From a virus (lineage: Duplodnaviria; Caudoviricetes), in the IMG/VR virus record IMGVR_UViG_3300009702_000041, positions 1-43,468 of that record: a stretch of 43,468 nucleotides of DNA; one strand, given 5' to 3'. Numbering within the stretch: position 1 is the stretch's first letter; each line of letters begins with the position of its first letter. The notes beneath the pieces are model-generated. The model was not told the origin of the DNA and searched no databases. It worked only from the letters and a program-made list of their open reading frames with translations. The position numbers were made by a program, and so were the translations under genes. Of this stretch, positions 1 through 43,468 are shown piece by piece.

Positions 1-1296
1 ATTTTCAAAAATATGAAATAATTGTATACCTTTTTCTTTACATAATTTAGTTTTATTAAGATGTCTGTTTTTATTTTCGGTATCAGCAGAATACGATGAA
101 TGCCAGAATAAACCATTATATTCAATTGCTAAATTATGGTCCGGTATATAAATGTCCAATTCTAAAGGTTTAATTATCTGTCTATTGCCGGATTGTACAT
201 TATCAATTAAAGATTGACAAAATTCTAAAATTTCATTTTCAGCAATAGATTTATTATAAGGATAACATTTGAGACAACGAATATAAAAATGAGATGATTC
301 TCTTATTTCACCACATTTATGCTTATATTTAATAAAATTATTATTTTTATTTATATATTCATTTATAGTAGTTAATAATTCATAATCATTTGGAATTTTT
401 GCTTTAATCTTATAAAAATGAAATTTTCTATGCGATTTTTTAATTTTTAATGCACCACTTTCATAACTCGTTAATCCCGTTTTTGGATTAATTTTTAATT
501 TTGTTTGTTTACTTTTTATTCCAATTTGTTGATAACCAGATAATCCTGTTTTTGGATCAATTTTAATTAATGTTTTTCTTGTTTTTATCCCAATTAATTT
601 GCGTTTTGTTAATCCAGTATTATTATCTATCTTATCTAATGATAATTTAATTTTTTCTTTAATTCTAGATAATTCTAAAACAGATTTAATATTATCAATA
701 TTATCAATTTCTTCCTGTGTTCCAAATTTCAATACTTGGTTTTTTGTATCATTATCTCGTAATTGCCCATTATTCCAATTATGTTCAATACCATATCTTT
801 CCAATATTGATTCTTTAGCTTTTTTTCTAATAAAGGTTAATGAAAAAGAAGATTTAATATTATCAATATTATCAATTTCTTCCTGTGTTCCAAATTTCAA
901 TACCAGGTTTTTTATGCCATTATCTCGCAAATATCCCAACTTCCAATTATGTTCAACACCATAAGTTTTTACCATGGCATTTTTATAATTTTCTCGATAT
1001 TCTGGCGATTTTTTAGCACATTTTGAACAATACTTATTATAAGTATATTTTTTATCACCACGCTCATTCCAATAAGGAACAGCAACTTTACACATATCAC
1101 ATTTAACTAATTCTGTAATTTCATTTTTAACATAATAAATACGTTCTCTAATTGATACATTATTATCTAAAAAATTTGTAATTTCAACCAATTCTAAATA
1201 ATTATTATACCACCTATTATTTATTTTCTTTATATTAGTTAATCGCTTACATGAATCACAAAATTTAATTAATTCTAAAACATTTTTAGAATACAT
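1..1296 (-). CDS. Hef-like/Vsr-type endonuclease family, copy 1 (runs off window start; not in ORF track)
   Basis: Manual translation from ATG at 1296: MYSKNVLELIKF...CDMC...CSKC, two 56-aa YG(V/I)EHNW repeats, three I(D/N)xxTGL repeats, HKCGE...RCLKCYPYNKSIAENEI...ELDIYIPDHNLAIEYNGLFWH...QLFHIFEN; open to position 1. Confidence 0.9.
   Translation of the reverse strand, partial: MYSKNVLELIKFCDSCKRLTNIKKINNRWYNNYLELVEITNFLDNNVSIRERIYYVKNEITELVKCDMCKVAVPYWNERGDKKYTYNKYCSKCAKKSPEYRENYKNAMVKTYGVEHNWKLGYLRDNGIKNLVLKFGTQEEIDNIDNIKSSFSLTFIRKKAKESILERYGIEHNWNNGQLRDNDTKNQVLKFGTQEEIDNIDNIKSVLELSRIKEKIKLSLDKIDNNTGLTKRKLIGIKTRKTLIKIDPKTGLSGYQQIGIKSKQTKLKINPKTGLTSYESGALKIKKSHRKFHFYKIKAKIPNDYELLTTINEYINKNNNFIKYKHKCGEIRESSHFYIRCLKCYPYNKSIAENEILEFCQSLIDNVQSGNRQIIKPLELDIYIPDHNLAIEYNGLFWHSSYSADTENKNRHLNKTKLCKEKGIQLFHIFEN
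682..963. repeat. Internal 168-nt-period duplication in nuclease copy 1
   Basis: 682-735 is identical to 850-903 (agatttaatattatcaatattatcaatttcttcctgtgttccaaatttcaatac); similarity continues beyond. Confidence 0.9.
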
Positions 1297-1322
1297 TTTT
1301 ACATATATTTTATTTTGATTTT

Positions 1323-1330
1323 TATAAATA
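1323..1330 (+). promoter_or_regulatory. T4-type late promoter
   Basis: TATAAATA 97 nt upstream of the fibre gene, which has an AAGGAG SD. Confidence 0.65.
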
Positions 1331-1332
1331 TC

Positions 1333-1341
1333 ATTATAACA
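1333..1341 (-). promoter_or_regulatory. Extended -10 sigma70-type promoter for nuclease copy 1
   Basis: TGTTATAAT on the minus strand; AT-rich background lowers specificity. Confidence 0.5.
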
Positions 1342-1427
1342 AATAAAATATAACACATAAATTAAAATTAAATTTAAATTTATTTTTCAAACAAAATAAT
1401 TAATCTATTAATAAGGAGATATAATAT

Positions 1428-4736: not shown

Positions 4737-4745
4737 GGAAATATT

Positions 4746-8178: not shown

Positions 8179-8197
8179 ATAAAATTAAGCAAACTGA

Positions 8198-8320
8198 ATA
8201 GATTTTCATGAAAACATAAATTTAAAAAATAATGAAATATAAAAACTCGTTTTTCAACTAGAAATGAGTTTTCTAATTAATACAATTGTTGGAATTATGG
8301 TATTTAAAGATAAAATATTT
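8198..8320 (+). pseudogene. Decayed 5' fragment of another MDFHG-family gene
   Basis: Translates IDFHENINLKNNEI*KLVFQLEMSFLINTIVGIMVFKDKIF; start ATG>ATA and in-frame TAA; colinear with 6905-7027. Confidence 0.9.
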
Positions 8321-8372
8321 ATTATTGGAGTATCATCTAGAATTTTTAGAATTGATATGTAAATAAAAATAA

Positions 8373-8406
8373 TTTGGTAATAAATATTAAATTATTTATT
8401 ACCAAA
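8373..8406. terminator. 14-bp perfect inverted repeat between converging operons (probable terminator)
   Basis: TTTGGTAATAAATA-ttaaat-TATTTATTACCAAA. Confidence 0.55.
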
Positions 8407-8449
8407 CAATTGCTTCTACCGATAATTTATCTATTGCAGCATCAATATT
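8399..8449 (-). pseudogene. Remnant C-terminus of a DUF4376/tail-fibre-assembly gene
   Basis: Minus strand reads NIDAAIDKLSVEAIVW*, compare QIDASTTKIAIEAIIW* at the end of 19105..19776; an in-frame TGA lies just upstream. Confidence 0.55.
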
Positions 8450-8486
8450 ACTAATATCATAATATCAATTTATTTATTAAATAATT

Positions 8487-10043: not shown

Positions 10044-10055
10044 TTATATTTCTCC

Positions 10056-11615
10056 TTAAATTATGATACGTTTGAATATGGTCTGGTTTCCAGCATTGTT
10101 TGTTATTCCTAACCCATGACGAGCACCATATCCACAGGTATATATATCTCCATCTGAGGTTAACAAAATAGCATATCTGCCACCAATTTCATATCCATTA
10201 CCTTGAATATCTAATATTTTGCTTGTTTCTTTAAATATCACATCAGTAAAGGATGTTAAATTTCCAACTATTCCAGTTCCACTTTCACCTGCACCATTCT
10301 GGCCAGCCGCTTTTAATGTATTATCTGCATATAATATGTATACGGTTGAATAAAAACCATATACATGAGCATCTCCGGTTGAAAATATTTTTGAAATTGC
10401 CGTAGCATCTTGATTTGGTGTTCCATTACTAGTAAGTGTACCATCGCCTAATTGGCCAAGGGCATTATATCCCCAACGAACAAATGTTCCATCAGTATTT
10501 TTACAATATACCGTCATTGGGCCACCACCAAATGCATGTATTTCAGATACTGGTTTTGTTAATGTTACTTGTGTAGGAGTTAACGTATTACTACCACCAA
10601 GTGTGCCATTACCTAATTGTCCCCAATCATTATTTCCGGTTGAATAAACATTACCATTGGTGTCTAAAAATATAGTAGCTCCATTAGTAACAGCAGAAGT
10701 TGTAAAATATCCATATCCACCTTGTATATCCACGATATCTATTGTATTGGTTGTGAAATATGTTACTTCAGCTAAAGTGCTATTTGTGGCGGTACTAACT
10801 CCAGTTCCGAGTTGTCCATGAGTACCAAAACCAGCAGCCCAAATTTTGTTATTAGCTGTTTTTATAAAAATAGAACCATACGTAGATCCTAAAATCCAAA
10901 CATTTGTAATTGGAGAAGATCCAGGATCAGGAGAAACTATTTGAAAAAATGAATTTTGTTGCGTAGTATTACCTGTTCCCAGTCCTCCAAAACCATTATA
11001 CCCACAAGCCCAATATTCACCATTTGTTAACTTCACTATTGTTATTCTTTGATCTGTTGCATAGCCATTAATTTTAGGTTTAACAAATTCAGAAACTGTA
11101 CCATTAAATGTTGAGACTTTCGTAGGTATATGTTTATTTACTGTGTCACCGTGTCCCAAATTACCAAATCCACCAAAACCCCAACTATATAAATTACCTG
11201 TTGATGATATAGCATATCCTTGCTGACCAATTAACATAGCATCAACAATTGTTCCGCTTTCATCAGATGGCAAGACAACCTCTTGTGGTGTAAGAAAAGA
11301 TACTGTATTACCTAATCCAAGATCACACTGAGGTGAATCACCCCAAACCATTAATCTACCATCATTTGTTAGAAATCCATTACCATTATAACTATTAATC
11401 GTAGCAAGAGAACCGGCAGTTTTAGATGTATCCGGTCCAGGAAATTCCCATTTAGAACCATTATGAACATATTTACCAATAGTTCCATCAGTTTGATAAA
11501 AGATTTCTCCAGCACTTGGAGATGTTAAAGCTAAACGTTCTGCTTCTGTTCCTGAGTCAACGGTCAAATTTTTAAAATCAGCACCATCGATCATTTTTAA
11601 TCCATCATATAACAT
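10056..11615 (-). CDS. RCC1-repeat protein (paralogue B)
   Basis: Same architecture, colinear with paralogues A and C. Confidence 0.85.
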   Translation of the reverse strand: MLYDGLKMIDGADFKNLTVDSGTEAERLALTSPSAGEIFYQTDGTIGKYVHNGSKWEFPGPDTSKTAGSLATINSYNGNGFLTNDGRLMVWGDSPQCDLGLGNTVSFLTPQEVVLPSDESGTIVDAMLIGQQGYAISSTGNLYSWGFGGFGNLGHGDTVNKHIPTKVSTFNGTVSEFVKPKINGYATDQRITIVKLTNGEYWACGYNGFGGLGTGNTTQQNSFFQIVSPDPGSSPITNVWILGSTYGSIFIKTANNKIWAAGFGTHGQLGTGVSTATNSTLAEVTYFTTNTIDIVDIQGGYGYFTTSAVTNGATIFLDTNGNVYSTGNNDWGQLGNGTLGGSNTLTPTQVTLTKPVSEIHAFGGGPMTVYCKNTDGTFVRWGYNALGQLGDGTLTSNGTPNQDATAISKIFSTGDAHVYGFYSTVYILYADNTLKAAGQNGAGESGTGIVGNLTSFTDVIFKETSKILDIQGNGYEIGGRYAILLTSDGDIYTCGYGARHGLGITNNAGNQTIFKRIII

Positions 11616-11627
11616 AGTAATATATCC

Positions 11628-12077
11628 TTATACAGTAGCCCATATAGTTTCTTGTGCTCTACCTGCCAATACAAGAGCTTCTTTTAATTCTTCACGAGTT
11701 ACAGTTAGCATGGTATTATCAGCCATTTTCCATTGAATAGTTTCTGTTGGATTTAAACCAGTTACTGCTCGTGCCATGCGAGTTTGAGCATCTTCATTTC
11801 CTTGAAATGTATTACCAGCGGCAGTTGTAACAGTTATTTGAGTAACATCAAAATCACGTTGACGTTTTGCTATGGCATAGTTAACTGCTGTTGCCGTGGC
11901 ACTATCATTATCCATTGATAGATCAATAAAGTTAATACCATTGTTAGCTAACCAATCTTGTATTTCTGCATTTGTTTTTAAAAGATGATCTAATGTACCA
12001 CTTTTAAATGTGTTATCGTCATTTTTTAAAATTACATAATCTCTTTTGTCATCAAGCCATTTTACATATACTATCAT
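11628..12077 (-). CDS. DUF4376-like tail fibre assembly/chaperone protein
   Basis: FQGNEDAQTRMARA...WKMADN...T.EELKEAL motif. Confidence 0.7.
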   Translation of the reverse strand: MIVYVKWLDDKRDYVILKNDDNTFKSGTLDHLLKTNAEIQDWLANNGINFIDLSMDNDSATATAVNYAIAKRQRDFDVTQITVTTAAGNTFQGNEDAQTRMARAVTGLNPTETIQWKMADNTMLTVTREELKEALVLAGRAQETIWATV

Positions 12078-12102
12078 TTTTATTTTCCTTAAGTTGAGGT
12101 TA

Positions 12103-13662
12103 TTAAATCAGTATTCTTCTGAATGTTGTTTGAAACGCGGTGCTACCAGCTATGCCAAGAGCACGAAATTGTCCATATCCACAAGTATAAATTTTCCCTT
12201 CACTTGTCAATAATGTAATACTACTTCCATCATTACCTGATCCATTTCTACGTATATCTATAATTTTTGATGAATCATTAAAAAATATTGGTTGAAATGT
12301 TAATGAATCAGTATTAGTTCCGATACCCAACTGTCCGATTGCATTTCTTCCAGTGGCCATAAGAATACCATCTGATTGTAAAATCCAAATCGAAGTTAGA
12401 TAAGAAAATGTATCCATAGCACCCGTATTAAATATTTTATCTATTTGGGTAGTTGATTGGATTGGTGTTCCACTACTAACAATGGTTCCATCAGCCAATT
12501 GTCCAAAGGCGTTGTATCCCCAACGAACGTATGTACCATCGGTGTTTTTACAATATACCGTCATCGGGCCACCACCACATGCATGTATTTCAGATACTGG
12601 TTTTGTTAATGTTACTTGTGCAGGTGTTAATGTATTAGCATTAAGCACTGTGCCATTACCCAATTGTCCAAATTGGTTATTACCTGTTGAATAAACATTA
12701 CCGGCATCATCTAAAAATATAGTAGCTCCATTAGTAATAGTGGTGGATGCAAAATATCCATAGCCGCCTTGTATATCCACTATATTTATGCCATTACTTG
12801 TAAAATATGTTACTTCTGTAAACACTTTTGTTAAAACTGTATGGCCCAATCCTAATGTACCATGGTTGTTATATCCGGTTGCCCAAATTTTGTTATTAGC
12901 GGTTTTTAACATTACCGCACCAAATGTGGTTCCTAAAACCCAAACATTTGTAATTGGTGAACCGCCTGGATCAGGAGAAACTATTTGAAAAAATGAATTT
13001 TGTTGCGTAATATTACCTGTTCCTAATTGACCAAAATGATTGGCTCCACAAGCCCAATATTCGCCATTTGTTAATTTTACTATTGTTGCCCGATCATTAA
13101 CACGTTGACCGTTTTCAATACCAAGTATCATTTCAGAAACTGTACCATTAAATGCTGCTACTTTTTTTGGAGTAGATTGATTAGCGGTATCGCCATGCCC
13201 TAATGTACCGGTGGAACCTCTACCCCAACTATATAAATTGCCAGTTGATGTTAATGCATATCCTTGTTGTGCTGTTAATGCCGCATTTACAATTGTTCCA
13301 GTTTCATTAAATGGTAATTGTACTTCTTGTGGTGTATCATATGTTTGGGTAGTAGTGCCTAATCCTAACTCACCATAGCCTTGTTGACCCCATGTATACA
13401 ATTTCCCGTTATTTGATAATGCAGAATTAGATTGATTTGCATTTATTGTTGTTAATTTAGATATGACACTACTTTGACTGCCTGAAATTATATTCCAATT
13501 TGTTCCATCATAACTATAATTACCGGCGGTACCATCAGTTTGATAAAATAATTCTCCAACTTGTGGAGAAACTAATGCCAAACGTTCAGCCTCAGTTCCA
13601 GGTTGAAGGGTCAAATTCTCTGCTTGAGATCCTTCTACGAATATAACACTATCATGAATCAT
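12103..13662 (-). CDS. RCC1-repeat protein (paralogue A)
   Basis: Same architecture; SD AAGGAG. Confidence 0.85.
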   Translation of the reverse strand: MIHDSVIFVEGSQAENLTLQPGTEAERLALVSPQVGELFYQTDGTAGNYSYDGTNWNIISGSQSSVISKLTTINANQSNSALSNNGKLYTWGQQGYGELGLGTTTQTYDTPQEVQLPFNETGTIVNAALTAQQGYALTSTGNLYSWGRGSTGTLGHGDTANQSTPKKVAAFNGTVSEMILGIENGQRVNDRATIVKLTNGEYWACGANHFGQLGTGNITQQNSFFQIVSPDPGGSPITNVWVLGTTFGAVMLKTANNKIWATGYNNHGTLGLGHTVLTKVFTEVTYFTSNGINIVDIQGGYGYFASTTITNGATIFLDDAGNVYSTGNNQFGQLGNGTVLNANTLTPAQVTLTKPVSEIHACGGGPMTVYCKNTDGTYVRWGYNAFGQLADGTIVSSGTPIQSTTQIDKIFNTGAMDTFSYLTSIWILQSDGILMATGRNAIGQLGIGTNTDSLTFQPIFFNDSSKIIDIRRNGSGNDGSSITLLTSEGKIYTCGYGQFRALGIAGSTAFQTTFRRILI

Positions 13663-13805: not shown

Positions 13806-14885
13806 ATGATAAATTATACTATTACTCAACCACAAAAAATGATTAATGATAATTTAATTGTTAAACATTTATCTGGTTCTAAATCTTATGGAACTGATAT
13901 TCCAGAATCTGATACCGATTATCGCGGAATATTTTATGCAAATAAAATAAATATTGTAACTCCATTTTTCCCAATTAAAGAGGTTATTGATTTTGATGAG
14001 GAAGATACTAAATTATATGAATTAACACATTTTTTAAAATTATGTGTTGATTGTAATCCTAATATTGTTGAATCTCTTTGGGTTGATCCATCTCATATTA
14101 TATTTAAAGATTCAAAAGGTATATATAAAAAACTTATAAAATATCGATCAGATTTTTTATCTACTAAAATAGCTCATACTTATTCAGGATATGCATTTGC
14201 ACAACTTAAAAGAATTAAAGGTCATAATAAATGGATAACTAATCCTCAATCAATTAATCCGCCAAGACAAATTGATTTTATTTCATTGGTACAAAATTTT
14301 ACTGATAAAAAAATATTTAAATTTAATTTAGAAGAATTAGAAAAATCATCTGTATCATATAGAATTATTCATTTAGGTAGTCAAATAAATGGAATATATG
14401 AATCTCCTGGATATTCATTATATGATAAAGATTTTACTTTAAATAATAGTGTTTATGATTCTAATAGTGGATTTTTAGAAAACAATATTCCAAAATATCT
14501 GGTTAAATATAATAAAGTAGAATATAATTTAGCATTAGAAAAATGGAAACAATATTGGGAATGGAAAAAAAATCGTAATGAAAAAAGATCAACATTAGAA
14601 GAACAATTTGGTTATGATACTAAACATGCTATGCATTTAATTAGACTTTTACGAACTGGGTATGAAGTATTAACAACTGGTAATATTAATGTATATAGAA
14701 AAGACCATGATGAATTATTAGCAATTAGAAATGGTTCCATGACATATGAAGAAATTATTAATTATGCCGATGATATGGATAAAAAAATTAAAAAAGTATA
14801 TAATAATTCAGTATTACCTAAAAAAGTTGATAAAATTAAAGTAGCTAATATATTAATAGAAATACAAGATTTGTGTTGGTCTTAA
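13806..14885 (+). CDS. DNA polymerase beta-superfamily nucleotidyltransferase (RlaP/Nuc-transf-like)
   Basis: GSKSYG...SDTDYRG motif, CNPNIVE, YDTKHAMHLIRLL. Confidence 0.85.
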   Translation: MINYTITQPQKMINDNLIVKHLSGSKSYGTDIPESDTDYRGIFYANKINIVTPFFPIKEVIDFDEEDTKLYELTHFLKLCVDCNPNIVESLWVDPSHIIFKDSKGIYKKLIKYRSDFLSTKIAHTYSGYAFAQLKRIKGHNKWITNPQSINPPRQIDFISLVQNFTDKKIFKFNLEELEKSSVSYRIIHLGSQINGIYESPGYSLYDKDFTLNNSVYDSNSGFLENNIPKYLVKYNKVEYNLALEKWKQYWEWKKNRNEKRSTLEEQFGYDTKHAMHLIRLLRTGYEVLTTGNINVYRKDHDELLAIRNGSMTYEEIINYADDMDKKIKKVYNNSVLPKKVDKIKVANILIEIQDLCWS

Positions 14886-18730: not shown

Positions 18731-19045
18731 TTATTCAGAATCTTTTTTCATGTCTTCATCATCATCTTTTTCTATGTCTTCATCATCATCTTTTTTCATG
18801 TCTTCATCATCATCTTTTTTCATGTCTTCATCATCATCACATGTACAATGTTTAGATTTTTCCATGTCTTCATAATCATCATCATCTTTTTTCATATCAT
18901 AATCATCATCATCCATTTCTTTAATACCAACTTCTTCTCGAATAGAAGAATTTAAATAAGTATGAAATTGTTCAGTCGCTATTTCTATATCATCATTAAT
19001 TAATGATTCAACAACTAAATGTAATGTTTTTTGTTTTGCTTTCAT
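18731..19045 (-). CDS. Small acidic prohead-core-like protein (gp67/68 position)
   Basis: Upstream of the protease; helical N-terminus with an Asp-rich DDDEDMKK repeat tail. Confidence 0.55.
   Translation of the reverse strand: MKAKQKTLHLVVESLINDDIEIATEQFHTYLNSSIREEVGIKEMDDDDYDMKKDDDDYEDMEKSKHCTCDDDEDMKKDDDEDMKKDDDEDIEKDDDEDMKKDSE
18741..18836. repeat. Four tandem 24-nt coding repeats
   Basis: tcttttttcatgtcttcatcatca x4 (one variant), encoding DDDEDMKK. Confidence 0.9.
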
Positions 19046-21210: not shown

Positions 21211-22248
21211 ATGGAAGAATTATTACAAAAATTATTAGAAGCGGAAATACTTTCAGATAGTACAAAATCTGAATTACAAGAAACTTTTAATTCAAAATTA
21301 CAAGAAGCAATTGAAGAAGTTAAAACAGAAACAGAAGTAGCGGTTAAAGCTGAATTAAGTGAACAATTTGTTTCAGAACGTGAAAATTTAATTGAAGCAT
21401 TGGATACGAAAGTTACTCAATTCTTAAATGAAGAATTTGGTGAATTACGTGAAGACATTAATCGTTTTAGAGATTTAGAACTTGAATATGCCGAAAAATT
21501 AGTTGAAGCTAAAGCTCAAATGAGCAATGAACTTAAAGGTGATTTAAAAGAATTAGTTGAAAGAATGGATTCATTTTTAGAAATTCGTATTAATACAGAA
21601 TTAAAAGAATTACGTGAAGACATTGAAATTAATAAACAAAATAATTTTGGTCGTAAAATATTCGAAGCTATTGCTGCAGAATATCGTAATAATTATGCTG
21701 ATGATGATAATTTAGCAGAAACATTAGCTGAAACAGAAAAACGTTTAGCCGATACAGAAGAAACATTATCTGAAGCAGAAACTAGATTAAATGATATTGA
21801 AAGAACAAATAAATTATCATCTATTCTATCTCCGTTAACCGGAAAACATCGTGATGTTATGGAAGCCATTTTGAAAAATGTTGCAACAGAACAATTGGAA
21901 GAAGGCTATAATACTTTTATAGGTCGTGTATTAAAAGAAGATGTAATGGAAGATGATGATCTTGTTACCGAAAATCATAATAAAAATATGAAATCTAAAA
22001 AAGATTATGATATGAAAGATATGAAATCTAAAAAAGATTATGATATGAAAGATATGAAATCTAAAAAAGATTATGATATGAAAGATATGAAATCTAAAAA
22101 AGATGCTGACATGAAAAAAATGGTTAAAGAAGGAAGAGTTATAAGTGGTGATATTGATCAAGATGATAATATAAATAATAATTCAAAATTATCAGAATCA
22201 AGTAAATCTCGTTTATTAGAATTAGCTGGTATAGCAATTAAAAAATAA
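21211..22248 (+). CDS. gp22: Prohead scaffold/core protein (T4 gp22-like)
   Basis: Glu-rich coiled coil with NNFGRKIFEA motif; first core gene before the capsid gene. Confidence 0.8.
   Translation: MEELLQKLLEAEILSDSTKSELQETFNSKLQEAIEEVKTETEVAVKAELSEQFVSERENLIEALDTKVTQFLNEEFGELREDINRFRDLELEYAEKLVEAKAQMSNELKGDLKELVERMDSFLEIRINTELKELREDIEINKQNNFGRKIFEAIAAEYRNNYADDDNLAETLAETEKRLADTEETLSEAETRLNDIERTNKLSSILSPLTGKHRDVMEAILKNVATEQLEEGYNTFIGRVLKEDVMEDDDLVTENHNKNMKSKKDYDMKDMKSKKDYDMKDMKSKKDYDMKDMKSKKDADMKKMVKEGRVISGDIDQDDNINNNSKLSESSKSRLLELAGIAIKK
21988..22104 (+). repeat. 3.5 perfect 33-nt coding tandem repeats
   Basis: atgaaatctaaaaaagattatgatatgaaagat (MKSKKDYDMKD). Confidence 0.95.
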
Positions 22249-22258: not shown

Positions 22259-22292
22259 AAAACGTGGAAAATTTAAATATTTTCCACGTTTT
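22259..22292. terminator. Bidirectional intrinsic terminator
   Basis: AAAACGTGGAAAAT-ttaaat-ATTTTCCACGTTTT between gp22 (+) and nuclease copy 3 (-). Confidence 0.85.
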
Positions 22293-24139
22293 TAATTATA
22301 AATCCATACTTGATTTCCACAATCAAAAATCTTTCGATATCCGTTATTATACATATTCTCAGTTTCTGTCAAATTTGGATCAAATTCTTTTAATTTATTT
22401 TTAAGCTTATGTTTTTGATATTTAATTCTTGATTCTACTAATAAGTCATTTGGTTTCCAATAAAAATAATTTGGACTACTTATATACTCAAACTCAAATC
22501 CTAAATTTTTATATAATCCTCCATCACTATGTCTTATATCTGCATAACTAATAATAGAACCAATATGTTCCTTCAAAAAATTCTTAAACAACCTACTAGC
22601 ACCACCTATAACTGAATAATTAATCTTATTACAAAATCTCAATAATTCCCATTCAATCTTTTTATTATATCTTGATTTACCAAATGTCATTAATGATACT
22701 AATTCATTATTGTAAAATAATCCGATATTAATAGATGAATTACATCGGCCTTGTAAATGATTTTTATCTAAAAATTCTTTAGTTTTTATTGAAGATATTT
22801 TTTGAATTTTACATTTTCTGGCAAATATTTTTTTAGATTGACCTAATTTATTTCTAATAATACTTTTCCAGATTTTTTGTTTTTGAACATTCTCCCATTC
22901 ATTTTCAAATATATGAAAAAGTTGAATTTCATTTTCCATACATAATTTTGTTTTTAATAAATGATAATCTTTATCTTCAGATTCAACAGAATTAAAACTA
23001 TGATAATAAAGTCCATCATATTCTATTGCTAAATTATGATCTGGTATATAAACATCTAATTCTAATGGAGAAATTAATTGTCGATTATTAGATATAACAT
23101 TATTAGTTAAAGATTGGCAAAATTCTAAAATTTCATTTTCGGCAATAGATCTATTATATGGATAACATTTAAGACACCGAATATTCACTTGCCTATGTGC
23201 TATTCGTATTTCTCCACAATCATGCTGATATTTAATTAAATTATGATTTTTATTTAAATATTCGGTTAATGATGTTAATAAAATATAATCAGGATAATTA
23301 TTTTTAAAATTTATTATTAATTTTTTAAAATAATTTATTTTATGTTTTTTACCTATTTTGGTTAATCCAGTTTTTAAATCAATTTTTGAATTGGATTTCT
23401 TTATTTTTATTGCAATTTGTTGATAACCAGATAATCCGGTTTTAGGATCAATTTTAGATTTTGTATTTTTTTGTTTAATAAGACCTAATTCAAAAATATT
23501 TAATTTAGTTATTGGATCAATTTTAGATTTCATCTTTTTCATAGTATCAAATCCATTTTTTTGATAACTATTTAATCCTGTTTCTGGATCAATTTTTAAA
23601 TTTGATTTTTTAGATTTTAATCCGATTTCTTGTGTTCTAGTTAATCCTGTTTCTGGATTAATTTTAGATAATGTTTTACCACATTTTATTCCTCGTTGTT
23701 GTGCTACAGTTAATCCAGTTTCCAAATTAATTTTAGATAATGTTTTTTTCTGCTTAATAGAATTCAATTGATATTTAGTTAATCCTGTTTTTTTATCTAT
23801 TTTAGAATTTGTTTCTTTTGCTTTTAATCCGATTTCTTGTGCCCTAGTTAATCCTGTTTCTGGATTAATTTGCTTACAAGTACACTTAAATGAACAACAT
23901 TTAACCTTATTTAATTTAATATCTATTTTAGAATTATTATTACAAACCGGACATTTTACCTGATCATGTATATTATTTTGAATATACCATAATCTTTCAC
24001 TTAATGATGCATCATAATTAATAAATGAAGTTTCATCTAATAATAATTCCTTTATCTCTGGATTATATCTCATTATATTAATAATACTTCGTATCGATTT
24101 ATTATTTAAATTCAATAACTTTCTAGAATATTTTTTCAT
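22292..24139 (-). CDS. Hef-like/Vsr-type endonuclease family, copy 3 (about 8 INPETGLT repeats)
   Basis: Start placed at ATG 24139 (MKKYS, as in copy 7); CPVC/CSFKC, repeats, HDCG/CLKC, nuclease and C-terminal GNAT-like motifs. Confidence 0.9.
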   Translation of the reverse strand: MKKYSRKLLNLNNKSIRSIINIMRYNPEIKELLLDETSFINYDASLSERLWYIQNNIHDQVKCPVCNNNSKIDIKLNKVKCCSFKCTCKQINPETGLTRAQEIGLKAKETNSKIDKKTGLTKYQLNSIKQKKTLSKINLETGLTVAQQRGIKCGKTLSKINPETGLTRTQEIGLKSKKSNLKIDPETGLNSYQKNGFDTMKKMKSKIDPITKLNIFELGLIKQKNTKSKIDPKTGLSGYQQIAIKIKKSNSKIDLKTGLTKIGKKHKINYFKKLIINFKNNYPDYILLTSLTEYLNKNHNLIKYQHDCGEIRIAHRQVNIRCLKCYPYNRSIAENEILEFCQSLTNNVISNNRQLISPLELDVYIPDHNLAIEYDGLYYHSFNSVESEDKDYHLLKTKLCMENEIQLFHIFENEWENVQKQKIWKSIIRNKLGQSKKIFARKCKIQKISSIKTKEFLDKNHLQGRCNSSINIGLFYNNELVSLMTFGKSRYNKKIEWELLRFCNKINYSVIGGASRLFKNFLKEHIGSIISYADIRHSDGGLYKNLGFEFEYISSPNYFYWKPNDLLVESRIKYQKHKLKNKLKEFDPNLTETENMYNNGYRKIFDCGNQVWIYN

Positions 24140-24238
24140 ATTAATATTATATACCAATTAAAAATATATTTATACATTTATATTAACTTATTGATTTTAA
24201 ACATAAATTTATAAAGTATTGAAATTATTATTAATTTT

Positions 24239-25903: not shown

Positions 25904-27796
25904 ATGAGTACAAAACGGAAAACTATTGAGGAAATTAATGAGATATTATCTAAAGCAGATATAACATTATTATCTGAATATTTTAAACCTACAGATAAAC
26001 ATAAATTTAAATGTAATAAATGTTTGCATATTTTTTCTACAGCATTAAAATTTAAATTAAAACAATGTAGAAATAATAAAATTGCATGTCCTAAATGTGC
26101 AATGAAAGAACAAGTTAAAAATGTGACTAAAATTAATCCAGAAACAGGATTAACTAGGGCACAAGAAATTGCTAGAAAAAGTGCTCAAACAATGAATAAA
26201 AAAGATCCGATTAGTGGCCTTTCTATTTATGATCAAACTGGTGATAAAATTAAAAATAATGTATTTGCGGTTAATGAAACTGGATTATCTAAGGCTAAAC
26301 AACGAGGATTAAAAACTAAACAAACTAAACATAAAATTAATTCAGAAACAGGATTAACTGGATATCAAGAAACGGCATTATTAAGTGCTAAAACAATGAC
26401 AACAACTATTAATCCACAATCTGGTTTAACTATTGCAAAAACTATTGGACAAAAAGTTAAAAAAATAAAAAGTCAAGTTGATATAGATACTGGTTTAACT
26501 GGATATCAATTAATAGGATTAAAAATCCAAAAAGCATTAAATAAAATTGATTTAGATACTGGTTTAAGTATAGCACAAAAAATTCAAATTAAAAAAAGAA
26601 ATACATTAAATACTATTAATCCAGAAACTGGTTTTACTATTGGTGAAGAAATTAATAAAAGAATTCAAGCAAAAATGAATAGCATTAATCTAGAAACAGG
26701 ATTAACATATGCTAAAGAAAAAGGAATAAAATTATCTAGAAGTAAAAAAAATATTACATTTGATAGTACCAAATCTAGATTTGATAATATTGATTATGAA
26801 TTATTAACAACTAAACAAGAATATATAAATTATATTGGTCAACCTATATTATCATATAAACATAAATGTGGAGAAATTCGGAATTCTTTAAGACAAAATA
26901 GAATTCGTTGTCTTAAATGTTATCCATATAATAAATCATTTGGTGAACATGAAGTTTTAGAATATTGTCAATCTTTAAGTGATAATGTTATATCAGGAGA
27001 TAGACACATAATTAAACCTTTAGAACTTGATATTTATATGCCAGATAATAATTTTGCAATTGAATACGATGGATTATACTGGCATTCATTTAATACAATA
27101 ACTCAAGAAGATAAAAATGTTCATTTAAGAAAAACTAAATTATGTAAAGAAAAAAGCATACAACTTCTTCATATATTTGAAAATGAATGGGATCATTATA
27201 AAAAACAAGAAATTTGGAAATCTATTATTAAAAATAAATTAGGACAATCTTTTAAAATATTTGCTAGAAAATGTGAAATATTAGAAGTATCATTTAAAGA
27301 CAGCCAAATATTTTTAGAAAATAATCATTTACAAGGCCGATGTAATTCATCTATTAATATAGGATTATTTTACAATAATGAATTGATATCATTGATGACA
27401 TTTGGTAAATCCAGATTTAATAAAAAAGTTGATTGGGAACTGTTAAGGTTTTGTAATAAGCTTAATTATTACGTTGTAGGTGCCGCTAGTAGGTTGTTTA
27501 AGAATTTTTTGAAGGGACATACCGGGTCTGTGATTAGTTATGCAGATATGAGATATAGTGACGGTAAATTATATAGAAATTTAGGATTTGAATTTGAACA
27601 TATAAGTGTACCTAATTATTGGTATTGGAAAGTTAATAACGGAATTTTATTAGAATCGAGGATACAATATCAGAAGCATAAATTGAAGGGTAAATTAGAA
27701 GAATTTGATGAAAATTTAACAGAAACTGAGAATATGTATAATAATGGATATCGGAAAATATATGATTGTGGAAATCAAGTATGGATATATAAGTAA
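25904..27796 (+). CDS. Hef-like/Vsr-type endonuclease family, copy 4 (about 9 repeats)
   Basis: CNKC/CPKC Zn-ribbon, INPETGLT repeats, HKCG/CLKC, ELDIYMP...AIEYDGLYWH, SYADMRYSDGKLYRNLGF. Confidence 0.9.
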   Translation: MSTKRKTIEEINEILSKADITLLSEYFKPTDKHKFKCNKCLHIFSTALKFKLKQCRNNKIACPKCAMKEQVKNVTKINPETGLTRAQEIARKSAQTMNKKDPISGLSIYDQTGDKIKNNVFAVNETGLSKAKQRGLKTKQTKHKINSETGLTGYQETALLSAKTMTTTINPQSGLTIAKTIGQKVKKIKSQVDIDTGLTGYQLIGLKIQKALNKIDLDTGLSIAQKIQIKKRNTLNTINPETGFTIGEEINKRIQAKMNSINLETGLTYAKEKGIKLSRSKKNITFDSTKSRFDNIDYELLTTKQEYINYIGQPILSYKHKCGEIRNSLRQNRIRCLKCYPYNKSFGEHEVLEYCQSLSDNVISGDRHIIKPLELDIYMPDNNFAIEYDGLYWHSFNTITQEDKNVHLRKTKLCKEKSIQLLHIFENEWDHYKKQEIWKSIIKNKLGQSFKIFARKCEILEVSFKDSQIFLENNHLQGRCNSSINIGLFYNNELISLMTFGKSRFNKKVDWELLRFCNKLNYYVVGAASRLFKNFLKGHTGSVISYADMRYSDGKLYRNLGFEFEHISVPNYWYWKVNNGILLESRIQYQKHKLKGKLEEFDENLTETENMYNNGYRKIYDCGNQVWIYK

Positions 27797-27797
27797 T

Positions 27798-29417
27798 GTG
27801 AAAGATAGAATATTAGAAATAATTAAGGATCAAAAGAAGATACGATTACCAAAAGTTGAAAAAGATTTTTTGGTAGAACAGACGAGTTTTTTGTCAGATG
27901 ATGTAGGCCTTAGGGAACGAATTTGGTGTTATATTAATGATATTGGTGAAGTTCAAATATGTCCTATTTGTAAAATTAAAAAATTGTCATGGTGTCGAAT
28001 TACAAATCAATATAAGAAAAAATGTTTAAAATGTAATTTATCATCCGAAGAAACAAGACGAAAAATAAAAGATACAAATATTAAGAGATATGGAAAAGAA
28101 AATGCTTTTCAATTTTCAGCTGAGAAGATAAAGCAGACTAAATTGGATCGGTATGGAGATTCTAATTATAATAATCGAGATAAATTTAAAAAGACTCTTT
28201 TAGCTCATGGTGGTATAGGTTGGCAATCAGATATTATACAATCTAAGATAAAGAAGACTAAATTAGATCGATATGGAGATTCTAATTATAATAATCGAGA
28301 TAAAATGAGGTTGACTAATATAAAATTATATGGAGAAGATTCTTATACTAAAACTTTTGAATATTGGAAATCAACAGTAATTAATAATAATTTATCCGAA
28401 TTAGAATTATATGAAATATTTAATTTAATTAATGATGATGATTGGCTTACAGCTGCATATAGGAATAATACGGTATTAGGATTGGCTAAATCATTAAATA
28501 TTTCATATAAGCCATTGATTAATAGATTAATTAAATTAAATGAATATATTCCAAAAGATCATAAATCATTAATAGAAAAAATTATATATGATGAATTGTT
28601 AAGGTTATCTGATAATATAATAAAAAATTCAAGATCTATTATATCGCCATTAGAACTTGATTTTTATATGCCAGATGATAATTTAGCGATAGAAATTAAT
28701 GGTTTATATTGGCATTCTGAATTATATGGTATTAATAAAAATTATCATTTTAATAAAACAAGGTTATGTAAAGAAAAAGGTATTCAATTGTTACATATTT
28801 TTGAGAATGAAATATATGATGAAAAAATTTTTAAAATTTGGAAATCTATAATTAGAAATAAATTAGGAAAATCTTCTAAAATATTTGCCAGAAAATGTGA
28901 AATTAAAGAGGTATCATCAAAAGAAACTAGAAATTTTTTAGATATGAATCATCTTCAAGGAAATTGTCCAAGTTCTATTAATTTAGGATTATTTTACAAT
29001 GATGAACTAGTATCATTAATGACATTTGGTAAATCTCGGTATAATAAGAAGATTGATTGGGAATTGTTAAGGTTTTGTAATAAGCTTAATTATTCGGTTG
29101 TTGGAGGAGCCTCTCGTTTATTTAAATATTTTCTTAAAAAATATGATGGGAGTGTAATTAGTTATGCAGATATGAGAAGAAGTGATGGCGGATTATATAG
29201 GAATTTAGGATTTGAATTAAGTCATAAAAGTGGACCTAATTATTGGTATTTTAAAAATAACAATATTGAATTAGAATCAAGAATTATGTATCAAAAGCAT
29301 AAATTAAAGAATAAATTAAAAATATTTGATAAAAATTTGACTGAATGGGAGAATATGCAATTAAATGGATATAATAGAATTTTTGATTGTGGAAATCAGG
29401 TATGGATTTATGTATAA
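27798..29417 (+). CDS. Hef-like/Vsr-type endonuclease family, copy 5 (K/R-YG repeat type; probable GTG start at 27798)
   Basis: CPIC/CLKC; TKLDRYGDSNYNNRDK twice (28125-28184 vs 28245-28304); ELDFYMP...AIEINGLYWH; SYADMRRSDGGLYRNLGF. Confidence 0.88.
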   Translation: MKDRILEIIKDQKKIRLPKVEKDFLVEQTSFLSDDVGLRERIWCYINDIGEVQICPICKIKKLSWCRITNQYKKKCLKCNLSSEETRRKIKDTNIKRYGKENAFQFSAEKIKQTKLDRYGDSNYNNRDKFKKTLLAHGGIGWQSDIIQSKIKKTKLDRYGDSNYNNRDKMRLTNIKLYGEDSYTKTFEYWKSTVINNNLSELELYEIFNLINDDDWLTAAYRNNTVLGLAKSLNISYKPLINRLIKLNEYIPKDHKSLIEKIIYDELLRLSDNIIKNSRSIISPLELDFYMPDDNLAIEINGLYWHSELYGINKNYHFNKTRLCKEKGIQLLHIFENEIYDEKIFKIWKSIIRNKLGKSSKIFARKCEIKEVSSKETRNFLDMNHLQGNCPSSINLGLFYNDELVSLMTFGKSRYNKKIDWELLRFCNKLNYSVVGGASRLFKYFLKKYDGSVISYADMRRSDGGLYRNLGFELSHKSGPNYWYFKNNNIELESRIMYQKHKLKNKLKIFDKNLTEWENMQLNGYNRIFDCGNQVWIYV

Positions 29418-37898: not shown

Positions 37899-39536
37899 TT
37901 ATTTATAAATCCATACTTGATTACCGCAATCATATATCTTTCGATATCCATTCAAATACATATTCTCAGTTTCTGATAATTTTGAATCAAATTCCTCTAA
38001 TTTATTATTTAATTTATGCTTTTGATAACCAAGCCTTGATTCTATATAATACTGCCCAGGTTTCCAATAAAAATAATTTGGTTTACTTTCATGACTTAAT
38101 TCAAATCCTAATTTTTTATATAAACCACCATCACTTCGTCTCATATCTGCATAACTAATTATACTCCCATCATAATTTTTAAGAAAATATTTAAATAAAC
38201 GTGATGCTCCTCCAATAACCGAATATCCTATTTTATTACAAAACCTTAACAATTCCCAATCAATTTTCTTGTTAAATCTGGATTTACCAAATGTCATCAA
38301 TGATACTAATTCATTATTGTAATATAAACCTATATTAATAGAACTATTACACTGACCTTGTAAATGATTATTTTCTAAAAATTCTTTAATTTCTTTAAAT
38401 AATATTTTTCTAATTTTACATTTTCTAGCAAATATTTTGGAAGATTTTCCTAATTTATTTCTAATTATAGATTTCCAAATTTCTTGTTTAATAGGATTTT
38501 CCCATTCATTTTCAAAAATATGCAATAACTGTATACCAAGGTTTTTACATAATTTTGTCTTATTTAAATGGCGATTTTTATCTTCAGCATCCATTGAATA
38601 TGATGAATGCCAAAATAAACCATTATATTCTATTGCTAAATTATAATCAGGGATATAAATATCAAGTTCTAAAGACTTAATTATTTGTCGATTACCAGAT
38701 ATAACATTATTACTTAAAGACCGACAAAATTCTAAAATTTTATTTTCAGCTATCGATTTATTATAAGGATAACACCTAAGACACCGAATCTGTTCTTGTC
38801 CATATTTAATTCGAATTTCACCACATTTATGTTGATATTTTATTCTATTATTAATAATATAATCATCTTTCAATGATAATAATGTATAATCCTTTAATTG
38901 ATTTAAAAATAATTTTTTTATATTATTAAAACTATTTTTTCTTTTTAATATTTTACTCTTTTCTAATGATATATCATAAATTGATAATCCAGTTTCAGGA
39001 TTAATCTTTTTCATTGTAATAGCCGCTTTTTTAGCTCCAACTTGATATCCAGTTAATCCAGTTTCAGGATTAACTTTACCCATCATTTCTTTTGTTTTTA
39101 TTGCAATTTCTTGAGCTTTAGTCAATCCTGTTTCAAAATTAATCTCATTTTTAGTTTTTGCTTGATTAATTCCTGCCATTTGATAACCAGTCAATCCAGT
39201 TTCAGAATTAATTTTAGAATTTGTTTCTTTTCTTTTTATTTCAATCTCTTGTGACCTAGTCAATCCGGTTTTAGAATTAATTTTATTTCTAGTACATTTA
39301 AATGAACAACATTTAATTTCATTTTTTTTAATTTTAGTTGGTTTACCACATACTGGACATTTAACTTGTTCATATATATTATTTTTTATATACCAAATTC
39401 TTTCAACACAATTAGCATCATAATTTAAAAATGATGTTTCATCCCATAATAATTCTTTAATATCCTTATTCCGCATCGAATTCATTAATCCCCTAACAGA
39501 ATAATCCTTAATTTTTATTAATTCATTTGAATACAT
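37899..39536 (-). CDS. Hef-like/Vsr-type endonuclease family, copy 6 (5 repeats; start placed at ATG 39536)
   Basis: MYSNELIK, CPVC/CSFKC, five INxETGL repeats, nuclease and SYADMRRSDGGLYKKLGF motifs. Confidence 0.9.
   Translation of the reverse strand: MYSNELIKIKDYSVRGLMNSMRNKDIKELLWDETSFLNYDANCVERIWYIKNNIYEQVKCPVCGKPTKIKKNEIKCCSFKCTRNKINSKTGLTRSQEIEIKRKETNSKINSETGLTGYQMAGINQAKTKNEINFETGLTKAQEIAIKTKEMMGKVNPETGLTGYQVGAKKAAITMKKINPETGLSIYDISLEKSKILKRKNSFNNIKKLFLNQLKDYTLLSLKDDYIINNRIKYQHKCGEIRIKYGQEQIRCLRCYPYNKSIAENKILEFCRSLSNNVISGNRQIIKSLELDIYIPDYNLAIEYNGLFWHSSYSMDAEDKNRHLNKTKLCKNLGIQLLHIFENEWENPIKQEIWKSIIRNKLGKSSKIFARKCKIRKILFKEIKEFLENNHLQGQCNSSINIGLYYNNELVSLMTFGKSRFNKKIDWELLRFCNKIGYSVIGGASRLFKYFLKNYDGSIISYADMRRSDGGLYKKLGFELSHESKPNYFYWKPGQYYIESRLGYQKHKLNNKLEEFDSKLSETENMYLNGYRKIYDCGNQVWIYK
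37900..37907 (-). promoter_or_regulatory. Late promoter formed by the last codons of nuclease copy 6
   Basis: TAT AAA TAA = TATAAATA upstream of the 37871 start. Confidence 0.55.
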
Positions 39537-39565
39537 AATAATATTATAAACTTTTATACAAATAC

Positions 39566-39573
39566 TATAAATA
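39566..39573 (+). promoter_or_regulatory. T4-type late promoter for the sheath gene
   Basis: TATAAATA 116 nt upstream of ATG. Confidence 0.7.
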
Positions 39574-39577
39574 TTTA

Positions 39578-39681
39578 TTGTAGAAAACAACCTAAATGTT
39601 GACCAGAAGTAATTCCCCTGGTTCTACGGCACAAAAGGGAATACGTATTACGGAAAATAACTATTTAAAACATTTAAGGAG
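39578..39681 (+). ncRNA. Candidate cis-regulatory structured RNA leader of the tail sheath mRNA
   Basis: Three-way junction plus loop pseudoknot, and an alternative anti-SD helix (see findings). Confidence 0.5.
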
Positions 39682-41878: not shown

Positions 41879-41920
41879 TATTATGGGTTTATTATGGGTT
41901 TATTATGGGTTTATTATGGT
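41879..41920 (+). repeat. Non-coding 11-bp tandem repeat
   Basis: TATTATGGGTT x3 plus TATTATGGT, running into the -10 box at 41922-41927. Confidence 0.9.
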
Positions 41921-41933
41921 ATATAATATTAAT

Positions 41934-43468
41934 ATGAAAAAATATAGTAAAGAACTTAAGGAATTATTTAATGATCCTAATATAAGAAGGCCGTCTTCTA
42001 AATGTAAGACAGGGTCTGTATTGGGTGAATTATTAATGAAAGAAACATCATTTTTGGTTAATTGTTTAAAATTATCGACTAGATTGTGGTATGTGGATAA
42101 TGATGTATTTGAACAGGTTAAATGTCCTAATTGTCAAAAACCTACAAACGTTAAAATTGATAAGAATGGGGCAAGGATTCAATTTTGTTCATTGAAATGT
42201 AGCTCTTCATATATTAATCCCGAAACTGGGTTAACAATACAAGAGCAAAATGGAATTATGCAGTCTAAAACAAAGACAAAAAAGGTTGATGGTAAATTAT
42301 CAATAGCACAAATTGGGGCTAAAAAATCGGCAGCTACAATGAAAAAAGTTGGTATTGATGGGTTATCTATATATGAAAAATCAGCTAAAAAGCAGAGCGT
42401 TACAAAAAATAAAGTAGATGATTTAACAGGGAAGACTATGGCGAAAATTGCTGGAGAAAAAGCAAAAGAGACAATGTCTAAAATTAATCCTGAAACAGGA
42501 TTGACTAAATTTCAAGAAATAGGTAAAAAAACAAGTAAAACATTAATAGAAAATCCTAATATATGTAAAGAACGGGTTATTAAAAGAAATGAAACAATGG
42601 CTGAAATTGATAAGGAAATCGGATTAAATTTATTTCAGATAGTTGGGATAAAAATAAAAGAAACATTATTTAAAATTAATCCTGAAACTGGATTAACTAG
42701 GGCTGAAGAAATTGGAATAAAAACAAGAGAAACTAATCGAAGAAAATATTATAAAAAATTATTAGTTAATTTTCCACAAAATTATAAATTATTAACATCA
42801 GAAAATGAATATTTAAATCAAAAAAATAGTTTAATTAAATATCAACATGAATGTGGTGAAGTACGAATAGCACATATACACGTAAATATTCGATGTCTTA
42901 AGTGTTGTCCTTATAATAAATCTATTGCAGAAAATGAAATTTCAGAATTTTGTCAATCTTTAACTAATAATGTTATATCTGGTAATCGACAAATAATTAA
43001 GCCTTTAGAACTTGATATTTATATGCCAGATTATAATTTAGCAATAGAATATGATGGTTTATTCTGGCATAGTTCATATTCAATTGATGCAGAAGATAAA
43101 AATTATCATCTTAACAAAACAAATTTATGTTTAGCAAAAGAAATTCAACTTCTTCATATATTTGAGAATGAATGGGAAGATCCAAATAAACGAGAAATTT
43201 GGAAATCTATAATTAGAAATAAATTAGGAAAATCTTCCAAAATATTTGCCAGAAAATGTGAATTAAAAGAAGTATCTTCAAAAGATTCTAAAGAATTTTT
43301 AGAAAATAATCATTTACAAGGAAATTGTCCAAGTTCTATTAATTTAGGATTATATTACAATAATGAATTATTATCATTAATGGCCTTTGGTAAATCCAGA
43401 TTTAATAAAAAAGTTGATTGGGAACTGTTAAGGTTTTGTAATAAGCTTAATTATTACGTTGTAGGTGC
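41934..43468 (+). CDS. Hef-like/Vsr-type endonuclease family, copy 7 (runs off window end; not in ORF track)
   Basis: Manual translation MKKYSKELKELF...CPNC...CSLKC, about 7 repeats, HECGE...RCLKC, ELDIYMP...AIEYDGLFWH...ELLRFC...VVG; open to the end. Confidence 0.92.
   Translation, partial: MKKYSKELKELFNDPNIRRPSSKCKTGSVLGELLMKETSFLVNCLKLSTRLWYVDNDVFEQVKCPNCQKPTNVKIDKNGARIQFCSLKCSSSYINPETGLTIQEQNGIMQSKTKTKKVDGKLSIAQIGAKKSAATMKKVGIDGLSIYEKSAKKQSVTKNKVDDLTGKTMAKIAGEKAKETMSKINPETGLTKFQEIGKKTSKTLIENPNICKERVIKRNETMAEIDKEIGLNLFQIVGIKIKETLFKINPETGLTRAEEIGIKTRETNRRKYYKKLLVNFPQNYKLLTSENEYLNQKNSLIKYQHECGEVRIAHIHVNIRCLKCCPYNKSIAENEISEFCQSLTNNVISGNRQIIKPLELDIYMPDYNLAIEYDGLFWHSSYSIDAEDKNYHLNKTNLCLAKEIQLLHIFENEWEDPNKREIWKSIIRNKLGKSSKIFARKCELKEVSSKDSKEFLENNHLQGNCPSSINLGLYYNNELLSLMAFGKSRFNKKVDWELLRFCNKLNYYVVG

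What the first reader, a model, noticed from the sequence alone, without database searches (positions are those of the whole stretch)
23350..23870. Variable arrays of ~23-aa I(N/D)PETGLT repeats: possible modular DNA-recognition code
Seen: between an N-terminal Cys Zn-ribbon and an HxCG...CxxC finger, five copies carry tandem ~23-aa units such as INPETGLTRAQEIGLKAKETNSK and IDKKTGLTKYQLNSIKQKKTLSK. Counts are about 3 (copy 1), 8 (copy 3), 9 (copy 4), 5 (copy 6) and 7 (copy 7). The turn (INPETGL) is constant, while the following basic helix varies at recurring positions (RAQEIG, GYQQIA, SIYD, KAQEIA). Similar unit types recur across paralogues (TRAQEI in copies 3 and 4; GYQ in copies 1, 3, 4 and 6). 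Inference: a shuffled repeat array that sets target specificity, loosely analogous to TALE, zinc-finger or NUMOD modules.
Basis: partly seen in the sequence, partly recalled or inferred. Interest (0 to 1): 0.8.

Follow-up and report, generated by a model that had tools for sequence, protein, structure and literature searches.

The report
New repeat arm on phage nucleases
Five genes of an uncultured jumbo phage, likely selfish DNA-cutting genes, carry strings of 3 to 9 copies of an uncatalogued 23-residue module that also occurs on several unrelated phage nuclease types; it likely grips DNA as a long, sequence-tolerant arm, and no simple one-repeat-one-base code was found.

Summary
The repeats are real. 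Five paralogues in a T4-like jumbo phage window carry 3, 8, 9, 5 and 7 units. Each unit is predicted as a short hairpin plus a 14-residue basic helix. The host proteins belong to a known class: Hef-like Vsr-type nuclease fused to a Mom-like domain that keeps most Mu Mom catalytic residues.

The repeat itself matched no Pfam domain or solved structure, and ten literature searches did not describe it. It occurs in about 245 protein clusters, beside GIY-YIG, HNH-like, Vsr-like and TnsA-like nucleases, so it behaves like a new NUMOD-type module.

Arrays grow by block duplication and share units between paralogues. One same-locus pair in two phages keeps five units in order while the nucleases are less alike, so the array probably helps set the target. 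A TALE-like code is not supported: units are only about 35% identical, variation covers most of the helix, no position shows clear diversifying selection, and some arrays are near-homogeneous.

No DNA binding was tested. The scan has noted other repeat-armed nucleases before, with different modules. Verdict: new variant of a known kind.

The parts
22292..24157 (-). Copy 3: free-standing Hef-like gene (Cys ribbon, repeat array, HxC/CxxC motif, Vsr-like nuclease, Mom-like domain), between scaffold and major capsid genes
   Evidence: site empty in XacN1 and Xoo-sp13
23882..23953 (-). N-terminal Cys ribbon (CPVC...CCSFKC), zinc binding inferred
   Evidence: sequence, invariant Cys
23315..23869 (-). 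Array of 8 units of about 23 residues (last one degenerate); each predicted hairpin plus basic helix
23165..23224 (-). HxCG...CxxC motif before the nuclease
22868..23149 (-). Vsr-like PD-(D/E)XK nuclease domain (approximate ends)
22334..22810 (-). Mom-like GNAT domain with H58, R111, D149, R151, Y159 equivalents
22259..22292 (-). 14-pair terminator-like hairpin between the convergent scaffold gene and copy 3
   Evidence: consensus match only
1..1356 (-). Copy 1 (cut by window end): DUF7487-like segment, then 3 units at 424-630
25904..27796 (+). Copy 4: 9 units at 26132-26752, different N-terminus
37899..39590 (-). Copy 6: 5 units at 38937-39281, upstream of tail sheath gene
41883..43466 (+). 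Copy 7 (cut by window end): 7 units at 42213-42743, directly after tail sheath gene; same-locus relative P0004 in L026
19795..21051 (-). Copy 2: same nuclease and Mom-like domain, no repeats of this kind
27744..29417 (+). Copy 5: same nuclease and Mom-like domain, DUF7487-type repeats in the slot of the array

Best explanation
The array is a run of an uncatalogued 23-residue hairpin-and-helix module (fold predicted) that likely serves as the long, sequence-tolerant DNA-gripping arm of free-standing homing-type nucleases, helping to choose the target without a simple per-repeat code. Shown: the units, their spread across nuclease classes, their turnover by duplication, the Vsr-like nuclease and the conserved Mom-like residues. 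Inferred steps: (1) the units line up end to end along a DNA groove, with conserved K16 and T20 holding the backbone and positions 9, 10, 13 and 14 adding base preference; a rough geometric guess is 3-4 bp per unit, 25-30 bp for eight units. (2) The Cys ribbon plus array place the nuclease near a site in a neighbouring conserved gene of a co-infecting phage that lacks the element, and repair copies the gene across. (3) The fused Mom-like domain would modify adenines and protect the donor genome. (4) Duplication and exchange of units and nuclease ends between paralogues let the element drift to new sites.
For: The unit occurs in 245 clusters. Among 164 proteins analysed, my motif rules placed 141 with a nuclease class; Pfam confirmed GIY-YIG or SegE in 14, T5orf172 in 2, TnsA-like in 2 and Vsr-like or Mom in 4 of 132 scanned. 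It fills the slot between catalytic domain and tail where a cultured SegD-position GIY-YIG protein has an I-TevI-type binding region. The 3-unit model has pLDDT 92.7 and resembles long helices; net charge averages +1.9 per unit. The copy 3 site is empty in XacN1 and Xoo-sp13. Copy 7 and P0004 both follow the sheath gene: N-termini are 68% identical against 41-48% for paralogues, and the first five units are collinear (0.64 against 0.34; no permutation of 30000 reached it). Their C-terminal parts are 62% identical against 71-74% among copies from the window and L024. In I-Bth0305I the NUMOD region makes largely nonspecific contacts (PMC3239194, section 19).
Against: No binding or cleavage data exist, and the tools cannot model protein with DNA. 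The locus link rests on one pair. Three other paralogues are also partly collinear with copy 7 (p 0.003-0.014). At the slot upstream of the sheath gene the second phage has a DUF7487-type array instead. The N-terminal tree is mostly unresolved. HNH classes rest on my motifs only; Pfam gave no HNH hit. Iyer et al. read REase-Mom fusions as restriction-modification rather than homing (PMC7824862).
Confidence: 0.55

Rival explanations
1. Modular code: each unit reads a short subsite through helix positions 9, 10, 13 and 14, like C2H2 zinc fingers, so unit order spells the target.
For: Types recur: GY at 9-10 occurs 75 times against 34 expected, in 54 proteins and five nuclease classes (kin not corrected for). 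These positions are under moderate constraint, pN/pS 0.55. Same-locus order is kept. Hairpin-helix beads; PRDM9 and Aart finger arrays appear as weak Foldseek rows (probability 0.03-0.28).
Against: Units are about 35% identical within and between genes, with variation over most of the helix. Order-matched units in relatives are only 1.0-1.2 times more alike than mismatched ones. Whole blocks are duplicated in P0003 and P0004, and P0169 has 11 detected units at 56% helix identity; a strict code would then need repetitive targets.
Confidence: 0.2
2. The array is a non-specific basic tether or ruler; specificity comes from the Cys ribbon, the HxC/CxxC motif and the nuclease dimer.
For: Unit number ranges 1-14. 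Positions 15 and 17-22 evolve nearly neutrally, pN/pS 0.92. I-Bth0305I gets most specificity from its central 14 bp. DUF7487 repeats replace the array in copy 5 and in L026.
Against: Nuclease ends cluster by genome, not by locus (P0005, P0007, P0013: support 95/97), so they are unlikely to define different targets alone. Array order is kept at one locus.
Confidence: 0.17
3. The proteins are mainly fused restriction-modification weapons against host or competing phage DNA, with the array as a shared target-recognition domain, rather than homing elements. This concerns the whole protein and is not exclusive of the best reading.
For: Iyer et al. 2021 predict this for jumbo phage REase-Mom fusions. 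Mom residues H58, R111 and R151 are kept in 21 of 21 aligned proteins, D149 and Y159 in 20 of 21.
Against: The same repeat sits on GIY-YIG and HNH-like proteins with no Mom domain. Copies are scattered between conserved virion genes at sites empty in relatives. Long arrays imply rare sites. PADLOC gave no match for 5 of 5 proteins.
Confidence: 0.2
4. The array does not bind DNA; it is a structural spacer or binds protein or RNA.
For: No structural match to a DNA-bound protein.
Against: Nearly all assignable carriers are nucleases; units are basic; position in the chain matches known binding regions.
Confidence: 0.05

Closest known systems
Hef-like free-standing endonucleases / jumbo phage REase-Mom fusions (phrog_3339, phrog_559; Iyer et al. 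2021, PMC7824862)
   Same: Vsr-like nuclease fused to a Mom-like domain, many copies per genome; the C-terminal part matches 421 of 50,697 phage records, 11-12 places in some Campylobacter phages.
   Different: This 23-residue array was not found in those records.
I-Bth0305I, EDxHD family (PMC3239194; PDB 3R3P)
   Same: N-terminal repeated modules, C-terminal Vsr-like nuclease; fold match TM 0.70 over the target.
   Different: It is intron-encoded, 266 residues long with the nuclease at the C-terminus, and has two NUMOD2/HTH motifs; ours are free-standing, carry a Mom-like domain after the nuclease, and have 3-12 hairpin-helix units.
NUMOD modules, e.g. the three NUMOD3 minor-groove repeats of I-BmoI (PMC3664794)
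   Same: Small basic helical modules shuffled among GIY-YIG, HNH and Vsr-like nucleases in beads-on-a-string arms.
   Different: No Pfam NUMOD match to the arrays at E up to 1; regular 22-24 residue spacing and longer arrays.
DUF7487 repeats (Pfam PF24308)
   Same: 23-residue period, K-x3-T helix end, same slot in paralogous nucleases; nearest ESM feature hit, 0.78-0.80.
   Different: Different turn (YG instead of PETG); profile comparison gave no alignment.
TALE repeats and C2H2 zinc-finger arrays such as PRDM9 (properties recalled, not from a call)
   Same: Tandem arrays that change by duplication and exchange.
   Different: No near-identical scaffold with a two-residue variable site; no zinc ligands in the unit; no code shown.

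Membership tests
Hef-like REase-Mom fusion | Match to the family profiles | tested here: met
   phrog_3339 E 5e-121 and phrog_559 E 4e-104 for copy 3; 7 of 7 copies match both
Hef-like REase-Mom fusion | Mom-like domain with catalytic residues | tested here: met
   H58, R111, R151 in 21 of 21; D149, Y159 in 20 of 21; Y59 is Leu in all; S124 register differs between aligners, a Ser in GxxSRL is present in 20 of 21 (residues from PMC13219725 section 13)
Hef-like REase-Mom fusion | Adenine modification activity | not testable with these tools
   needs assay
EDxHD / Vsr-like homing endonucleases | Vsr-like catalytic fold | tested here: met
   3R3P at rank 2, probability 1.00, TM 0.70, E 0.04; Vsr also listed; 3R3P best PDB sequence hit but E 0.2
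EDxHD / Vsr-like homing endonucleases | Composite E-D-x-H-D active site | tested here: inconclusive
   E[LIV]D...E-x-[DN]-G..H present in 25 of 25 proteins; the last Asp was not mapped
EDxHD / Vsr-like homing endonucleases | N-terminal NUMOD2/HTH motifs | tested here: inconclusive
   No NUMOD2 sequence was available to compare; the predicted unit is hairpin plus one helix
Free-standing homing endonuclease | Optional intergenic insert absent from relatives | tested here: met
   Scaffold and capsid genes adjacent in 2 of 2 relatives examined
Free-standing homing endonuclease | Site-specific cleavage and biased inheritance | not testable with these tools
   needs assay
NUMOD1 / NUMOD3 (Pfam) | Sequence match of the unit | tested here: not met
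   No NUMOD hit on the arrays of copies 3 and 4 at E up to 1; NUMOD3 hits in P0099 and P0148 lie outside the units
NUMOD-type module (works like) | Shared among unrelated nuclease families | tested here: met
TALE-like code | Near-identical scaffold with a narrow variable site | tested here: not met
   35% unit identity; about 11 helix positions at 2.7-3.5 bits over 715 units
C2H2 zinc-finger array | Cys2His2 ligands in each unit | tested here: not met
   column profile
C2H2 zinc-finger array | Similar fold | tested here: inconclusive
   only weak rows
DUF7487 | Profile similarity of the unit | tested here: inconclusive
   No Pfam hit on the arrays; hhalign of 125 against 10 windows aligned 1 column, 3 of 60 shuffles scored as high; period is shared

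The most novel reading that the evidence does not exclude
The unit is a natural zinc-free finger: each 23-residue hairpin-helix reads 3-4 bases through positions 9, 10, 13 and 14, and phages reprogram GIY-YIG, HNH and Vsr nucleases by reshuffling units. In the Hef-like forms one array would aim both a nuclease and an adenine-modifying Mom domain, giving a self-protecting, reprogrammable selfish gene and a new compact DNA-targeting code.
Probability: 0.2. Interest if true: 0.85.

Novelty: new variant of a known kind. Interest (0 to 1): 0.52.

Why it matters
How homing endonucleases move to new targets, and how one nuclease family fills many sites in a single phage genome, is still open. Here one genome holds paralogues with similar nucleases and different arrays, and a same-locus pair differs by a recent block duplication. 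That makes the question directly testable by mapping cut sites and swapping arrays. The module is small, metal-free and confidently folded in prediction. If it carries a code it would be a new programmable DNA binder; if not, it is still an uncatalogued module on hundreds of phage nucleases. The intact-looking Mom domain suggests a way for a free-standing nuclease to avoid cutting its own genome.

Tried and rejected
No whole genome is held for the window, so copies outside it were seen only on separate contigs.

Searches that found nothing for the unit: Pfam (only scattered sub-threshold or zero-stretch hits such as GA and Ig_NUP210), NCBIfam, PDB sequences, Foldseek and VIA on the 3-unit model (best Z 3.5, long helices only; this does not show that the fold is new), annotated phages, GTDB genomes by a two-unit DNA pattern (0 matches), IMG/VR by the search for related loci. 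ESM Atlas hits were 0.78-0.82, leads only (DUF7167, DUF7487). PHROG 21618 matched 19 of 48 segments weakly, best E 0.0009; not followed.

A match of P0112 to Klebsiella phage nucleases was through the GIY-YIG domain; that protein lacks the unit. Homology with DUF7487 was not supported.

Rows dropped before counting: of the 150 listed hits, four proteins over 3,500 residues and P0125 (972 residues) were treated as false or unrelated, and P0025 as a fragment of copy 7. One search held one off-register unit pair; one search repeats the selection test without it.

Sequencing runs: one DNA holder, possibly the source; no RNA holder listed. Its contigs cover the array and showed no joint at a multiple of 69 bases; contigs drop rare variants.

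Literature searches without a description of this repeat; they match words, not sequence. The original Hef paper (PMC1275590) was not held. The NUMOD paper of Sitbon and Pietrokovski was not seen. The supplements of PMC3239194, which list Vsr-like sequences, were not read and may bear on the NUMOD2 comparison.

Full report
Context. The window is part of a T4-like jumbo phage. It has Gp23 capsid, prohead protease, sheath and UvsW genes, and its capsid protein is 63% identical to that of Xanthomonas phage XacN1. Seven ORFs share a C-terminal region matching PHROG families labelled homing or HNH endonuclease (7 of 7); six give weak Pfam Mom hits.

Observation. The repeats are present as described: 3, 8, 9, 5 and 7 units in copies 1, 3, 4, 6 and 7. 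A strict motif occurs 24 times, only in these ORFs, against 0.015 in shuffles. A unit profile hit 5 of 37 window ORFs and 0 of 805 shuffled proteins.

The unit. Across 715 units in 164 proteins, spacing is mostly 22-24 residues. G6 (97%), L7, S/T/N8, Q11, K16 (85%) and T20 are conserved; positions 9, 10, 12-15, 17-19, 21 and 22 vary at about 3 bits. A shorter hairpin variant (ENGLT, EDGLT) exists, and position 12 co-varies with the hairpin, so it is probably structural. AlphaFold gives each unit a small hairpin and a 14-residue helix (pTM 0.30 for the whole protein, C-terminal domain poorly predicted; three units, pLDDT 92.7, pTM 0.64). The three-unit model resembled only long helices. No Pfam, NCBIfam or PDB entry covers the unit.

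Where the unit occurs. A two-unit profile found 245 clusters among 1.84 billion representatives; 150 were listed and examined, and six rows were dropped as set out under Tried and rejected. My motif rules, partly recalled, sorted 164 proteins (these hits plus those and five locus ORFs) into GIY-YIG 32, Vsr-like 27, TnsA-like 25, C-terminal HNH-like 22, Hef-like 20, N-terminal HNH-like 12, T5orf172 3 and unassigned 23. Pfam confirmed 14 GIY-YIG or SegE, 2 T5orf172, 2 TnsA-like, 1 endonuclease I and 4 Vsr-like or Mom among 132 scanned, and no HNH. The array follows N-terminal nucleases and precedes C-terminal ones. That is the behaviour described for NUMODs (PMC2677866 and PMC1564403, passages). 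It was not found in annotated phage genomes or by DNA pattern in GTDB genomes.

The host protein. The nuclease domain matches I-Bth0305I and Vsr, and its motif is intact in 25 of 25 proteins. That paper counts Hef-type enzymes in the family (PMC3239194, passages and section 19). The last domain is Mom-like and keeps most residues that Mu Mom needs (PMC13219725, passages and section 13), although the overall profile match to Mu Mom is weak (E 0.13). Iyer et al. already describe REase-Mom fusions in jumbo phages and predict modification plus restriction (PMC7824862, passages). So the protein class is known. Copy 3 sits between scaffold and capsid genes that are adjacent in XacN1 and Xoo-sp13, as expected for a free-standing mobile gene (PMC2988022, passages).

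How arrays change. P0003 has a recent block duplication (units 88-97% identical in DNA), P0004 and P0015 have internal copies at 77-87%, and 11 of 122 proteins with three or more units hold a near-identical helix pair. Of the 30 closest unit pairs among 92 units from 16 genes, 13 join different genes. P0169, P0171 and P0020 share 61-75% identical N-termini yet have different arrays.

For a role in targeting. Copy 7 and P0004 both lie directly after the sheath gene in two phages whose sheath proteins are 56% identical. Their N-termini are 68% identical and group together (88/94), and five units are collinear. Their C-terminal parts are less alike (62%) than copy 7 is to copies 3, 6 and L024a (71-74%), and three nucleases from one 305-kb contig form a clade while their N-termini do not. 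The front half therefore tends to follow the locus and the nuclease the genome. This rests on one pair and short, partly unresolved trees. A GIY-YIG pair at a shared locus (L013, L025) has 5 and 6 units with similar ends. The slot upstream of the sheath gene holds a DUF7487 array in the second phage, and only one of its Hef-like genes on that contig has this repeat.

Against a simple code. Units are equally unlike within and between window genes (35% and 36%). Order-matched units in relatives are at most 1.2 times more alike than mismatched ones. In close pairs pN/pS is 0.21 for the hairpin, 0.14 for positions 11, 12 and 16, 0.55 for 9, 10, 13 and 14, and 0.92 for 15 and 17-22; single positions reach 1.3 on small counts, which is no clear diversifying selection. 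Some arrays are near-homogeneous. Recurrent types such as GY remain real and keep a looser finger-like code open.

Mechanism. I commit to a sequence-tolerant binding arm on a homing-type nuclease (0.55). DNA binding, groove geometry, the 3-4 bp per unit estimate, homing and self-protection by Mom are all inferred; none was tested. Rivals are a modular code (0.2), a pure tether (0.17), a restriction-modification role for the whole protein (0.2, not exclusive) and no DNA binding (0.05).

Novelty. The proteins are members of the Hef-like REase-Mom class. The repeat works like a NUMOD but fails sequence membership in NUMOD1 and NUMOD3. A link to DUF7487, which shares period and slot, is a lead only. 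Ten literature searches did not describe it; I saw only listings for papers not named here, and passages of PMC3664794. The scan's notes hold no look-alike sequence but list other repeat-armed nucleases. Verdict: new variant of a known kind, interest 0.52.

Noticed in passing
window 27744-29417 (+); L026 1922-3682 and 9266-11095: Paralogues carry DUF7487-type repeats, also with a 23-residue period, in the slot of the array; copy 1 has both kinds in one protein. The ORF of copy 5 overlaps the end of copy 4.
   Followed up: partly
L024 1433-3514 (-): Portal-like gene with an apparent intein (by eye), flanked on both sides by repeat-bearing Hef-like genes with 8 units each.
   Followed up: no
L002-L004, L010: Contigs whose IMG/VR names mark them as a giant-virus bin carry these genes and a phage portal-like gene; they look like jumbo phage sequence.
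   Followed up: no
L001 3746-4780 (-): A second GIY-YIG-like gene near the repeat-bearing one has a different tandem repeat (SIDDPRYISGEL-type).
   Followed up: no
window 4119-13662: Runs of tandem paralogues: four ORFs starting MDFHG, and three 518-519 residue ORFs with repeated GxNxxGQLG motifs that look like beta-propeller tail proteins (by eye).
   Followed up: no
window 13806-14885 (+) and 36520-37380 (+): RlaP-like nucleotidyltransferase and a caspase-like C14 peptidase inside the virion gene region.
   Followed up: no
window 18731-19045 (-) and 21211-22248 (+): Short low-complexity tandem repeats (DDDEDMKK; KDYDMKDMKSK) in head assembly proteins.
   Followed up: no
P0169: A 701-residue Hef-like protein with about 12 similar units is named 'archaellin' by its source, apparently in error.
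   Followed up: partly
alignment A4: phrog_21618 (73 positions, unknown function) weakly matches 19 of 48 three-unit segments and may contain a related unit.
   Followed up: no
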